From assembly GCF_056746865.1 (NCBI RefSeq), contig NZ_CM163382.1: 64,000 nt of DNA. One strand, written 5' to 3'. The position numbers were made by a program. Positions 1 through 3,000 of the stretch are shown in pieces. Numbering within the stretch: the stretch's first letter is position 1; each line of letters begins with the position of its first letter.

Positions 1-3000
1 GCGCGCTGAGAAATACTGTGGCTAAGATTGGGGCGACAAGAAGTGGTAGGTATGCGATAGAGAAAGCCGTTCAGGAAGCTACAAAAGCAGTGCGCGCAGG
101 GGCATCACCAGCAGCGATCGCCGCAGCAGAGAAACGATTTTCGGCCAATAAAATTGCCATGAAAGCAATTCGTGATGCCGTTGGGGCTGAAGAATTCGTG
201 AAACTGACAAGGGCCGGGATTGTAGCTACCCTCAGTGGCATGAAAGATGTTAGCGAATGGGAATAGACGCTCTAACTAACAAAACCATAATAGCCAAGGA
301 CGGCATACTGATATTGAGCCAACTATCAAAATTCCATATCACATTACGGGCCTGTGGCTTACATTCGCTTACAGTGATGATAATTTATAACCACGCAATT
401 CTTAGGTGAGATTATCATGATTAAAAATCTTCTTTTAATATTATCCCTGTCATTATTGGCTGGATGCGTACAAAAACCGTTAGTAACGGTCAATGCTTTA
501 TCTTCCGGGCAATCTGTCGGTAAGAAGTTCTTGATCATCCCCGCAAGCCAAGAACTTTGGAACACCAAACAGATTGAATACACTCAAATAGCTACGGTAG
601 TAGCCGCCAGTTTATCAAGCCAAGGATATACACAAGTTAAAGATGAAAAATTGGCTGACCAGGTAATTCTCTTGAACTTTTTGAGAAGCGGGGCCATTTC
701 AAATACTCGTAATGTAACCATCCCAATATACGGGCAAACTGGTGTGAGCTCAGCAACAACGTACGGAAACTCGAACACCACGTTCAATAGTTATGGTGGT
801 GGCTACGGTACAGCTAATACCACTGGAACGGCAACAACAGTTTATACGCCTACTTATGGAATTACTGGCGCGTATAACACAACTGTGACGGACACGTTCT
901 ACGGCGCAGGGGTGATACTCCAGTCGTTTGATGCCAAGGCTTATCTCAATAATAGGCAGATTAATATGTTATGGAAAGTTGGTAGCTCAGTCGTCTCGCA
1001 ACAGTCTGATGGAATTGCTGATTACAAGGGGTTGGCGAGAATAGCCGCTAGCTATGCCGGGAAAAATACAGAAGGTGATATAACTTTTAATGTTGACCCT
1101 AAAGCACCAAATTAACTAATAAGCCCGGTACGCCGGGCATTTATGCCCCTATTATTCATGAATCGCTTTTTCTAGAAGGTATGCGACAAACGTTAAGTGA
1201 CATTGCCTACACATTCGGGGCGGGATTTCAAATCCGCTCCCAGTTGATGGGGGGCGTTACAGTACGCGCATATCCGCTTTATGTGAAACAGGAAGATTTT
1301 TCTGATATCACTGCCACAGCAAAACACCAATTTCGTGACCAGTACGCGCGCGAGGGGCATCAGTTGCAAAAAGTTTTGCAACTGCGTCCGACCAGTACAC
1401 ACACGATGGCGGTGGATACCATAAAACTGTTCTCTACATGAGACAGAGTGGTGGTGATGTGTTGATTATCGGCGTATATGCGCACAGGTCGCGCTATGAC
1501 GATGTTTTATGCGGGTACACCAATCACATGTATCTGATGTGATAAATCGCGTTACATGACCTCTCTGTTGTGCTGGTGGTTATCACGACGTTCTGAATCT
1601 GGCTTTTGTCTGATATTTTGCGACAAGTACGCGCGCGTAGCATCGACAGCATACACATTGGATATTCATTTTGTGACCAATGCGATAAGTAGCGGGATAA
1701 GCATTGATAAAATCAACAGGCCGATGATCCACTTTTGATTTTCACTGGCCTTATCTCTATTTTCATCAATCTTATCCATAATTCGACGCTCCAAGCCGTG
1801 CATATCACCGCGAATGGCAATTATCTCATTGCGAACATCCGAGAAGTGGTTGGCTTGATGTTCAATGTGTGGCGTTCTGCCTTTCATGCCTGATCCTCAC
1901 CCATCGTCACCACCTGCTGGTGTATAAAGGTATTGGCCCAAGCAGCTTTCCAATGGGCACTCATGTTTATACGCTGACCTTACAATCAATCACCGCTTTT
2001 AACTTTTCAGCATTGCTTCCCTGACGCTTCCACGCGCTGTAAATATCTTTATCCCACGCTTTACCAGCTTTTGTTTGATAGCCTGCTTCATTGATCCGTT
2101 CAGCTATCACACGCCCATTATCAAATCCCTGTTGGATGGTATCGGCAATGATCTTTATAACTGCCGTTTCGTTATATGGCTTTGGTGGGATGTTCGACTT
2201 TCCGGCAATAAGCGACGCAGCGGCTTTTTCCATGCGCTCCACCAGCCCAAGCATTCGTGAATCAATAGACTTTTCCGGCTGTCCCAGCTTCATGCGAATC
2301 GCATCAACAAGCCAGGAGGTTTTATCCCCTCCAGAAGCGAGAACAGACCGATTAAACTCATCCTGCAATTCAGATGGGATGCGGAACGCGACCAGATTAG
2401 ATTTGCTCATTGCAAAGACCATATCAGTGAGTAATATCCATACAGTATACCACTGTATAACACTGTTATACGCTCAAATATCAGCCAGAAAATAACGAAC
2501 CAATCACAAATCTATCGCTGTGTTGTTGGTTCAGAGCTGGGCTGTGTTGGTTCAAAATGAGTTGATGTTGGTTCAATATTTTAGAAAAAACGCAATAAAA
2601 ACAACGATCTTTACAAATTGAACCAACTGAACCAACTGAACCAACACCTTTTTGCTTATCTATATAATCTGAGAGGCAGAAATGATAAGGGACAGGAAAG
2701 CTGAAGAGCTGGAGTCAAAAGGGCTATACCGGAGAGCTGCCGCACGATGGGCAGAAGTCATGATGCTGGCAGATGGCGATAAAGAACGTGAACATGCAGC
2801 AAACAGACGCTCTGAATGTATCCGTAAGGCGGCACGCCCACCAGCAACTACAGACAAATTCGGAGATTTAAGACAGGCAGTTAAGCGGACTCATTCGGCT
2901 CTTGGTATGGATGAGGAAGCGAGAGGGTACTTCAGGCGTTATCGCGATAAAGATTGCCAGAGACAGTAATGCTCTATCTGTTTTGGCAAATTACCCCTCA

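What the first reader, a model, noticed from the sequence alone, without database searches (positions are those of the whole stretch)
2410..2700. Iteron-like array of six GTTGGTTCA sites between divergent RHH and PerC-like genes
Three direct copies of TGTTGGTTCA sit exactly 21 bp apart (2524, 2545, 2566), followed by three tandem inverted copies (TGAACCAAC at 2619, 2628, 2637) at 9-bp spacing. They lie just upstream of a PerC-family gene with a TATAAT-like box and upstream of a divergent ribbon-helix-helix gene. Helical-phase spacing and dual orientation point to cooperative binding of a regulator, as in phage or plasmid control regions.
Basis: seen in the sequence. Interest (0 to 1): 0.6.

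Follow-up and report, generated by a model that had tools for sequence, protein, structure and literature searches.

The report
Displaced half of satellite replication origin
The six GTTGGTTCA repeats are real, but they are most likely binding sites for the primase-helicase of a phage satellite (a PICI of the EcCIMP1 type), forming the second half of its replication origin moved several kb from the first half by cargo genes, and not operators of the neighbouring small regulator gene.

Summary
Six exact GTTGGTTCA sites lie at 2525-2645: three direct at 21-bp spacing, a 43-bp spacer that is 79% A+T, then three inverted at 9-bp spacing. About 0.5 sites are expected by chance in 64 kb.

The window's first ~3.35 kb is the right end of an EcCIMP1-like phage-inducible chromosomal island inserted between yicC and dinD. 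In near-identical elements, a mirror-image six-site array of the same 9-mer starts 26 bp after the stop codon of the island's TOPRIM/DUF927 primase-helicase (Rep).

Across 52 Rep relatives from Enterobacterales:
- Every locus has an iteron cluster starting 5-47 bp after the Rep stop.
- 22 carry both modules side by side.
- 30 carry one module next to Rep, and 13 of these have a second module 1.1-8.8 kb downstream, as here.

The iteron sequence partitions perfectly with a short C-terminal Rep motif. One class changed the same two bases in every iteron together with a 4-codon swap in Rep.

The neighbouring "RHH" gene occurs without the array, the array occurs without that gene, and the gene has its own conserved proximal repeats.

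Verdict: a Rep-bound origin module, split like P4 ori/crr. It is a variant of a known kind and of moderate interest.

The parts
2524..2575 (+). Three direct iterons, TGTTGGTTCA at 2524, 2545 and 2566, spaced 21 bp apart. This is the left arm of origin module 2.
   Evidence: Iteron columns are 92% conserved across 12 loci from 9 genera, against 59% for the bases between them.
2576..2618 (.). A 43-bp A+T-rich spacer (79% A+T), the candidate DNA-unwinding region. The part next to the right arm (consensus AACAA..ATCTTTACAAAT) is moderately conserved. It holds a single GATC, at 2606.
   Evidence: [quoted passage not shown]
2619..2645 (-). Three head-to-tail inverted iterons, TGAACCAAC at 2619, 2628 and 2637. 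This is the right arm of origin module 2.
2646..2668 (+). A T-rich stretch followed by TATAAT (2663-2668). A T-rich plus TATA-like element follows the last iteron in 10 of the 12 aligned loci (not L058 or L060), whatever gene lies downstream. It is either an outward-reading promoter (-10 only, no -35) or part of the origin.
2497..2505 (-). A degenerate iteron-like copy, GAACCAATC (2 mismatches). It is not conserved in UMNK88. It may be a relic of the inverted iteron that precedes module 2 in contiguous origins.
   Evidence: This is inference.
2441..2471 (.). Separate repeats, ACAGTATACCACTGT and GTATAACAcTGTTATAC, 31-61 bp upstream of the divergent gene. They are the likely operator or promoter of that gene and are not part of the iteron array.
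   Evidence: Other genera carry tandem GTAAGACAG repeats at the same position, even where the iteron array is absent.
1967..2410 (-). Divergent 147-aa gene: an RHH-like N-terminus (unconfirmed) plus a confidently folded helical C-terminal domain. It is an accessory regulator of the island.
2682..2969 (+). PerC-family regulator gene, the first gene downstream of module 2.
   Evidence: EcCIMP1_025 is the characterised counterpart (PMC11773190).
3339..3350 (+). GGTGTACATAAT, the candidate att core marking the right end of the island. It is repeated next to the integrase gene in UMNK88.
   Evidence: yicC-dinD is a listed PICI insertion site. dinD starts at 3630.

Best explanation
The array is one of the two iteron modules of the replication origin of an EcCIMP1-like phage-inducible chromosomal island.

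Each module has the same plan: three 9-bp sites, a ~43-bp A+T-rich spacer, then three sites in the opposite orientation. The sites are most likely bound by the C-terminal DNA-binding region of the island's own TOPRIM/DUF927 primase-helicase (Rep), whose gene lies outside the window.

In the commonest arrangement the two modules sit side by side just after the rep gene. In this E. coli lineage the second module lies about 6 kb downstream, in inverted orientation. It is separated from the first by accessory genes (P22-type DNA-transfer proteins and the RHH-like gene). It now sits in front of perC, about 700 bp from the island's right end.

Inferred mechanism: after the helper phage induces the island and it excises, Rep oligomers bind both modules and the A+T-rich spacer melts. 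The two modules may cooperate by DNA looping, as P4 ori and crr do, and Rep then loads itself as primase-helicase. Because the last three sites end 17 bp before the perC -10 element, Rep occupancy probably also affects perC transcription.

What is shown here: the repeat anatomy, its pairing with a rep-proximal twin, its conservation, and its co-variation with Rep. What is inferred: binding, melting, looping and any effect on perC.
For: 1. In elements 88-99% identical to the window, all 12 exact GTTGGTTCA sites fall in two clusters. One starts 26 bp after the Rep stop and the other is the finding's array. The two are ~120-bp inverted copies of each other.
2. In a Klebsiella capsid-forming PICI, both modules are contiguous directly after the DUF927 gene, with no PerC or RHH gene nearby.
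3. In 52 of 52 Rep relatives (52-96% identity) an iteron cluster starts 5-47 bp after the Rep stop. 22 loci are contiguous two-module origins and 30 are single modules. Thirteen of the 30 have a displaced second module 1.1-8.8 kb downstream, against 2 of 22 contiguous ones (Fisher p=0.012), so the total is usually two modules.
4. There are nine iteron classes. All 34 GTTGGTTCA loci carry RG[YF]Q[RQ]KSPR[IV] in Rep. All 6 TGTTGTCTC loci carry RGYQGRVRE. GTCGGTTCA goes with RK[ST][PL]RI. The TGGGATAA-type classes go with WQxRxPRLxHxNNAR.
5. The origins of two classes align column by column. Every iteron differs by the same 2 nt (TGAACCAAC versus TGAGACAAC), together with a 4-codon swap in Rep.
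6. L062, from another class, has a displaced module at +7.8 kb built from its own iteron.
7. Iteron columns are 92% conserved, against 54-59% for flanking and intervening columns.
8. The architecture matches published PICI origins, and the EcCICFT073 pri-rep-ori is experimentally functional (PMC6092414; its different iteron, TGTCTACC, is seen).
9. P4 has the same layout, with crr directly 3' of alpha and ori 4.5 kb away between divergent genes. The Rep primase domain is 34% identical to P4 alpha (E=3e-42).
10. The same element exists as a 12-kb circular record.
Against: - There is no experimental binding or replication data for this Rep or these sites.
- Rep's C-terminal fold could not be modelled (pLDDT 49) and has no PDB sequence relative, so 'DNA-binding wing' is an inference from co-variation.
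- The Rep motif lies only ~150 bp from the first iteron, so linkage contributes to the co-variation. argues against linkage being the whole explanation.
- 17 single-module loci show no second module within the DNA available (at most 10 kb, some much less), so two modules may not be obligatory.
- The window itself does not contain rep or module 1. They are inferred from 99%-identical relatives.
- No DnaA box or IHF consensus is present.
- Which module is the actual start site is unknown.
Confidence: 0.8

Rival explanations
1. The array is a set of operator sites for the divergently transcribed RHH-like protein, which would bind cooperatively and control its own gene and perC.
For: In L010, L019, L021 and L027 (four other genera), an RHH homologue sits immediately next to the displaced array, as in the window. 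The 21-bp spacing is helically phased.
Against: - RHH homologues of 63-64% identity occur with no array beside them in L022, L037 and L038; L054 carries only a partial, 49%-identical match.
- The array occurs beside other genes, or none, in L005, L006, L034, L058, L060, L062, and in all contiguous origins.
- The identical 9-mer flanks the rep gene 6 kb away.
- The 9-mer co-varies with Rep.
- The RHH-like gene has its own conserved proximal repeats. These differ between E. coli (CTGTATAAC type) and other genera (GTAAGACAG), in step with differences in its N-terminal strand (SNLVAFR versus SLSVTFR), while the iterons stay the same.
- The RHH fold itself is not confirmed.
Confidence: 0.04
2. The displaced module binds Rep but is not part of the start site. 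It would be a control locus that titrates Rep or pairs with module 1 ('handcuffing', as with P1 incA or other extra iteron clusters of plasmids) to limit replication. Alternatively, or in addition, it would make perC transcription depend on Rep.
For: - It is an extra iteron cluster outside the rep-proximal origin.
- The last three iterons end 17 bp upstream of a good -10 that lacks a -35, which suits an activator-dependent or occluded promoter.
- A T-rich plus TATA element follows the last iteron in most of the 12 aligned loci.
- PerC follows module 1 in L019, L023, L027, L028 and L039, so a perC-type gene next to an iteron module is recurrent.
- 17 loci appear to manage with one module.
Against: - The module has the complete origin anatomy, including the A+T-rich spacer, not just a row of sites.
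- The displaced module is found mainly where the rep-proximal cluster has been reduced to one module (13/30 versus 2/22). This points to a requirement for two modules rather than an optional brake.
- In P4, the analogous second cluster is positively required in cis. This rests on established knowledge of P4 crr; the annotation is.
Confidence: 0.14
3. The repeats are recombination or packaging signals: integrase or excisionase arm-type sites of attR, or a pac/cos-like site recognised by the helper phage's terminase.
For: The array lies near the right end of the island, about 700 bp from the candidate att core at 3339. The island is mobilised by a headful-packaging P22-like helper (PMC11773190).
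Against: - A whole gene (perC) separates the array from the att core.
- The identical array sits 26 bp from the rep stop, in the island interior.
- In contiguous origins both modules are far from the att sites.
- The repeat sequence tracks Rep rather than the integrase. The same GTTGGTTCA array accompanies islands at yicC-dinD and near yagU (proA-yagU in EcCIMP1), whose integrases have different annotated protein accessions.
Confidence: 0.02

Closest known systems
PICI replication origins (SaPI ori; E. coli EcCICFT073 pri-rep-ori; Fillol-Salom et al. 2018, PMC6092414)
   Same: - The host element is a phage-inducible chromosomal island with int, alpA-type regulator, antirepressor, primase-helicase and perC.
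- Two sets of short iterons in opposite orientation flank an A+T-rich region.
- The iteron sequence is specific to the island's own Rep.
- A twin module lies immediately 3' of rep.
   Different: - This array is not immediately 3' of rep. It lies about 6 kb away, next to perC.
- The origin is built of two such units rather than one.
- Rep is a TOPRIM/DUF927 protein unrelated to the EcCICFT073 primase, and the iteron is GTTGGTTCA rather than TGTCTACC.
Satellite phage P4 ori and crr, bound by the alpha primase-helicase
   Same: - There are two clusters of the same short iteron in mixed orientation.
- One cluster (crr) lies directly after the primase-helicase gene, and the other (ori) lies several kb away in an intergenic region between divergent regulatory genes.
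- The N-terminal zinc-ribbon/TOPRIM primase domain is homologous (34% identity, E=3e-42).
- Modules are about 120 bp long.
   Different: - The P4 iteron is TGTTCACC.
- The helicase and origin-binding parts of alpha show no detectable similarity to the DUF927 Rep.
- P4 has three units (two crr repeats plus ori), whereas this island has two.
- In P4 the requirement for both clusters is experimentally established. Here it is only inferred.
EcCIMP1 (Pick, Stadel & Raivio 2025, PMC11773190)
   Same: It is the same island family: integrase, AlpA, antirepressor, Ash, DNA primase, P22-type DNA-transfer proteins, a divergent small regulator, and PerC at the far end. It is induced and transduced by the P22-like phage Kapi1. 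Strain 789 (L005) has that gene order and carries both iteron modules.
   Different: That paper does not describe an origin or iterons (0 occurrences of 'iteron'). The window's island sits at yicC-dinD and carries the RHH-like gene where the EcCIMP1-type island in strain 789 (L005) has an HTH gene; in EcCIMP1 itself the gene described at that end is alpA_1.
Auxiliary iteron clusters of iteron plasmids (for example P1 incA)
   Same: A second cluster of Rep-binding repeats lies outside the minimal origin and could pair with it.
   Different: Those clusters lack an A+T-rich unwinding spacer and act negatively. Here the module is a full copy of the origin unit, and the distribution suggests a positive requirement. 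The comparison rests on general knowledge and was not tested here.

Membership tests
PICI replication origin | Lies in a phage-inducible chromosomal island (integrase, AlpA-type regulator, pri-rep, specific att site, about 10-16 kb) | tested here: met
   The UMNK88 island, 99% identical over the 1,101-bp query (window 1900-3000), has int, HTH, antirepressor, ash and TOPRIM/DUF927 primase genes between yicC and dinD. yicC-dinD is a listed PICI att site. The EcCIMP1 family has been shown to be helper-mobilised.
PICI replication origin | [quoted passage not shown] | tested here: met
   Three direct plus three inverted exact 9-mers surround a 43-bp spacer that is 79% A+T.
PICI replication origin | Located immediately 3' of the replication initiator gene | tested here: not met
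   This array is 6.2 kb (L001), 1.9 kb (L002) or 7.8 kb (L005) downstream of the Rep stop. Only its twin module is rep-proximal, at 26 bp.
PICI replication origin | Iterons specific to the cognate initiator | tested here: met
   Iteron classes partition perfectly with a Rep C-terminal motif (34/34 and 6/6, plus smaller classes). A concerted 2-nt change in every iteron accompanies a 4-codon swap in Rep. This is computational co-variation, not binding data.
PICI replication origin | Supports Rep-dependent autonomous replication | not testable with these tools
   The only indirect hint is that the element is deposited as a 12-kb circular 'plasmid' record.
P4 ori/crr system | Initiator homologous to P4 alpha (primase + helicase + origin-binding domain) | tested here: inconclusive
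   The primase domain is homologous (34% over 338 aa, E=3e-42). The helicase and C-terminal regions show no significant similarity.
P4 ori/crr system | Type I iteron TGTTCACC | tested here: not met
   The iteron here is GTTGGTTCA. The P4 repeats are as annotated in NC_001609.
P4 ori/crr system | Two separated iteron clusters, one directly 3' of the initiator gene and one kilobases away | tested here: met
   L001 has clusters at 14483-14593 and 20626-20746. In P4, crr is at 4291-4590, next to alpha, and the ori repeats are at 9310-9413.
P4 ori/crr system | Both clusters required in cis for replication | not testable with these tools
   There is only distributional support: a displaced module was found in 13 of 30 loci whose rep-proximal cluster is a single module, against 2 of 22 loci with contiguous origins.
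RHH repressor operator | Repeats co-occur with the RHH gene across relatives, and the neighbouring protein is an RHH | tested here: not met
   The gene occurs without the array, and the array occurs without the gene. There is no RHH profile hit, and the fold search was uninformative.

The most novel reading that the evidence does not exclude
The two inverted origin modules bracket the island's whole accessory and packaging region and work as one looped, P4-like split origin. Rep bound at module 2 would double as the switch for the adjacent perC-family virulence regulator, so perC expression would be coupled to satellite replication after helper-phage induction. In addition, the Rep wing motif and the two central iteron bases would form a simple, re-programmable recognition code (QRKSPRI with TGAACCAAC, QGRVRE with TGAGACAAC, QRKTPRI with TGAACCGAC).
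Probability: 0.2. Interest if true: 0.55.

Novelty: new variant of a known kind. Interest (0 to 1): 0.4.

Why it matters
- **Annotation.** EcCIMP1-like islands occur in about 10% of complete E. coli genomes: 554 of 5426 match this region. They carry perC-family regulators that act on the LEE virulence island. Their origin has not been described in the papers I could search.
- **Origin organisation.** Recognising the array as origin DNA shows that this island family keeps two origin modules but tolerates kilobases of cargo between them. This parallels P4 ori/crr in an initiator with a different helicase.
- **Specificity series.** The relatives provide a natural series of specificity switches. 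All iterons and a four-residue Rep motif change together. This could be used to study, or to engineer, orthogonal satellite replicons.
- **Limits.** It is not a new kind of system.

Tried and rejected
- **RHH operator model.** Rejected on distribution and co-variation.
- **Arm-type att site or packaging site.** Rejected on position and on the twin array next to rep.
- **Structured RNA.** Rfam gives only sub-threshold miRNA-precursor hits caused by the inverted repeat (19 bits against a gathering score of 180).
- **Host-factor sites.** There is no DnaA-box or IHF consensus in 2400-2700.
- **Sigma-70 promoter.** The strict scan found none; only a -10 element is present.
- **Rep C-terminal fold.** The AlphaFold model was too poor (pLDDT 49), so no fold search was run. 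The PDB sequence search was empty.
- **RHH-like protein.** Pfam, NCBIfam and PDB gave no significant hit. Foldseek against PDB was uninformative.
- **Literature search for the 9-mer.** It returned only unrelated primer-type hits.
- **Published att core.** GAGCAGATTCAA, reported for the yicC-dinD PICI EcCIRM13514, is not present at the window's island end. A different 12-mer is repeated at both ends in UMNK88.
- **The search of protein representatives.** It showed that the Rep family is very large (10,088 representatives), but it was not needed further.
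Full report
**Observation.** TGTTGGTTCA lies at 2524, 2545 and 2566, 21 bp apart. TGAACCAAC lies at 2619, 2628 and 2637, head to tail. The exact 9-mer GTTGGTTCA occurs six times in the 64-kb window, all of them here. The expectation is 0.52, and none of 100 shuffles reached six. The 43 bp between the two triplets are 79% A+T, against a window average of 51%. TATAAT lies at 2663-2668, but it has no usable -35 and the strict promoter scan finds nothing.

The flanking genes are a PerC-family gene at 2682-2969 (phrog_994 E=2.5e-37) and a divergent 147-aa gene at 1967-2410. 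The 'RHH' nature of the divergent gene could not be verified. It has no Pfam, NCBIfam or PDB hit. The AlphaFold model has a low-confidence helix-helix N-terminus and a confident helical C-terminal domain, and the fold search was uninformative.

**Context.** dinD, yicG, ligB and gmk follow from 3630 onwards. Escherichia coli UMNK88 is 99% identical over window 1900-3000. It shows that the left end of the window is the right end of a ~16-kb island inserted between yicC and dinD. The island carries an integrase, an HTH regulator, an antirepressor, an ash-family protein, small ORFs, a 920-aa TOPRIM + DUF927 primase-helicase (Rep), P22-type DNA-ejection proteins, the RHH-like gene and perC.

yicC-dinD is a listed insertion site for phage-inducible chromosomal islands (PICIs), and several E. 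coli PICIs carry perC (PMC6092414). The gene set is that of EcCIMP1, a PICI shown to be induced and transduced by the P22-like phage Kapi1. That paper does not describe an origin (PMC11773190). The same element is also deposited as a 12,152-bp circular 'plasmid'. A 12-mer, GGTGTACATAAT, is repeated at both island ends in UMNK88 and lies at window 3339. This places the island's right end about 700 bp beyond the array.

**The key finding: a twin array next to rep.** In UMNK88 all 12 exact GTTGGTTCA sites within 41 kb fall into two clusters. One is the finding's array. The other starts 26 bp after the Rep stop codon, with sites spaced 9 and 9 bp, a 43-bp spacer, then 11 and 21 bp. The 12-kb circular copy and strain 789 show the same arrangement. 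The two clusters are inverted copies of each other over ~120 bp.

A Klebsiella capsid-forming PICI, deposited as a 16-kb 'plasmid', has both units side by side directly after its DUF927 gene. There are 11 exact sites in 280 bp, and no PerC or RHH gene is nearby.

**Survey of relatives.** A scan of one genome per species returned 55 loci encoding Rep relatives of 52-96% identity across Enterobacterales. In 52 of 52 loci where the Rep stop could be placed, an iteron cluster starts 5-47 bp after it.
- 22 loci have a contiguous origin of at least 9 sites, typically laid out as ++(+), spacer, -----, +(+), spacer, ---.
- 30 loci have a single six-site module next to Rep. Thirteen of these have a displaced second module 1.1-8.8 kb downstream within the DNA available.
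- Only 2 of the 22 contiguous origins have a displaced module (Fisher p=0.012).

The family therefore tends to keep two modules in total, either adjacent or split by accessory genes. The window shows the split form.

**Who binds?** There are nine iteron classes among the relatives: GTTGGTTCA, TGTTGTCTC, GTCGGTTCA, GGTCGGTTT, ACGGGTTA, GTGGGTTA, TGGGCTAA, TGGGATAA and CCGGGATAA. Mutual information between class and Rep residues peaks in the last ~40 aligned columns.
- All 34 GTTGGTTCA loci carry RG[YF]Q[RQ]KSPR[IV].
- All 6 TGTTGTCTC loci carry RGYQGRVRE, although their Reps are otherwise about 74-87% identical to the E. coli one.
- The GTCGGTTCA loci carry RK[ST][PL]RI. L037 differs from the main class by Ser to Thr, alongside a T to C change in the iteron.
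- The TGGGATAA-type classes carry WQxRxPRLxHxNNAR.

Aligning the end of rep plus the origin from two classes shows the same scaffold column by column. Every one of about 12 iterons differs by the same two bases (TGAACCAAC versus TGAGACAAC), and Rep differs by a four-codon swap. This concerted change is hard to explain by linkage alone. It identifies the 9-mers as the recognition element of the Rep C-terminus.

L062 belongs to the TGGGATAAG class. It has a displaced module at +7.8 kb built from its own iteron, beside a terminase-small-subunit-like gene. The displaced module therefore follows Rep, not its neighbouring genes.

**The RHH model.** RHH homologues do sit beside the displaced module in four other genera: L010, L019, L021 and L027. 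However, homologues of 63-64% identity (L022, L037, L038), plus a partial 49% match in L054, have no array beside them. The array also occurs beside an HTH gene or other genes in L005, L006, L034, L058, L060 and L062.

Every RHH-like gene carries its own conserved repeats 30-60 bp upstream of its start. In E. coli these are ACAGTATACC-ACTGTATAAC-ACTGTTATAC. Elsewhere they are tandem GTAAGACAG. They differ in step with the protein's N-terminal strand (SNLVAFR versus SLSVTFR), while the iterons stay constant. These proximal repeats (window 2441-2471) are the better candidate for that protein's operator.

**Conservation.** Twelve copies of module 2, from nine genera, were aligned. Iteron columns are 92% conserved, the A+T-rich spacer 70%, the bases between the 21-bp-spaced iterons 59%, and the flanks 54%. 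A T-rich stretch plus a TATA-like element follows the last iteron in 10 of the 12 loci, whatever gene comes next. perC-type genes follow module 1 in five loci. An outward-reading promoter under the influence of Rep is therefore plausible but unproven.

[quoted passage not shown] EcCICFT073 has a different primase (no similarity) and a different iteron, TGTCTACC, in the same kind of layout. The finding's array meets the architectural criterion and the cognate-specificity criterion. It fails the 'immediately 3' of rep' criterion, which only its twin meets.

The closest precedent for the split is satellite phage P4. There, crr (two 120-bp units of type-1 repeats) lies directly after alpha, and ori lies 4.5 kb away between divergent genes. 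The Rep primase domain is homologous to P4 alpha (34% identity over 338 aa, E=3e-42), but the helicase and C-terminal parts are not, and the iteron differs. The system therefore works like P4 ori/crr and like a PICI origin. It is a member of the PICI-origin kind with a variant, split organisation.

**Mechanism and confidence.**
- Shown: the anatomy, the twin array, the two-module rule, the conservation and the co-variation with Rep.
- Inferred: Rep binding (about 0.85), participation of this module in initiation as ori or as a crr-like partner (about 0.6-0.65), and an influence on perC transcription (about 0.3, not exclusive of the others).

A purely regulatory or copy-control role for the displaced module is the main rival (0.14). 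The RHH-operator model (0.04) and the att or packaging-site model (0.02) are unlikely.

**Leads that went nowhere.**
- The Rep C-terminal structure model was unusable.
- There is no Rfam family.
- There are no DnaA or IHF consensus sites.
- The literature search for the 9-mer returned nothing relevant.

**Verdict.** The array is real and non-random. It is best read as the displaced second module of a satellite replication origin. It is a new variant of a known kind and of moderate interest. Its main value is for annotating a common E. coli PICI family and as a clean natural example of concerted initiator-iteron specificity switching.

Noticed in passing
window 2441-2471: There are repeats right upstream of the RHH-like gene (ACAGTATACCACTGT, and GTATAACAcTGTTATAC, an 8-bp perfect palindrome). 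Homologues in other genera carry tandem GTAAGACAG repeats at the same position, even where the iteron array is absent. These are probably that gene's own operator.
   Followed up: partly
window 3315-3350: There are tandem GTGTACATAA copies. GGTGTACATAAT at 3339 is also found next to the integrase gene and after perC in UMNK88 (L001 5241 and 21508). It is the candidate att core and right boundary of the island. It differs from the core published for another yicC-dinD PICI.
   Followed up: partly
window 18-266, and L001 15221-18612: The satellite carries homologues of P22-type DNA-transfer/ejection proteins (phrog_770). These are genes of its podovirus helper type, and they lie between the two origin modules.
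   Followed up: partly
window 35018-45274 (minus strand); repeats at 37172-41830: There is a 3418-aa ORF containing 16 tandem copies of a 291-bp unit (84% matches). It looks like a giant repeat-domain surface protein.
   Followed up: no
L012, L009, L016 and L047 (alignment A4): The origins of two specificity classes align column by column. Every iteron differs by the same two bases (TGAACCAAC versus TGAGACAAC), while Rep differs by QRKSPRI versus QGRV-RE. This is a concerted specificity switch.
   Followed up: yes
L009 (CACSKA010000004.1): The contig is labelled Chryseobacterium sp. but carries an enterobacterial-type Rep (88% identity) and a GTTGGTTCA origin. Contamination or mislabelling is likely.
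   Followed up: no
L024 (Yersinia pekkanenii), -4555 to +1505 relative to the Rep stop: Three full iteron clusters lie within about 6 kb. This may reflect tandem or nested satellites.
   Followed up: no
L004 (Klebsiella phage P12620-1, PQ569648.1, 94970-106503), and L003: A 106-kb 'phage genome' record ends with a capsid-forming-PICI-like segment whose Rep C-terminal translation and 11-site iteron layout match those of the 16-kb Klebsiella 'plasmid' NZ_CP069874. This is either a chimeric assembly or a co-packaged satellite. The 12-kb E. coli 'plasmid' NZ_CP148430 is likewise a circular PICI.
   Followed up: no
window 417-1115 (+): A 232-aa predicted lipoprotein ORF in the island's cargo region has no PHROG match. 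Its relation to the cargo of UMNK88 was not checked.
   Followed up: no
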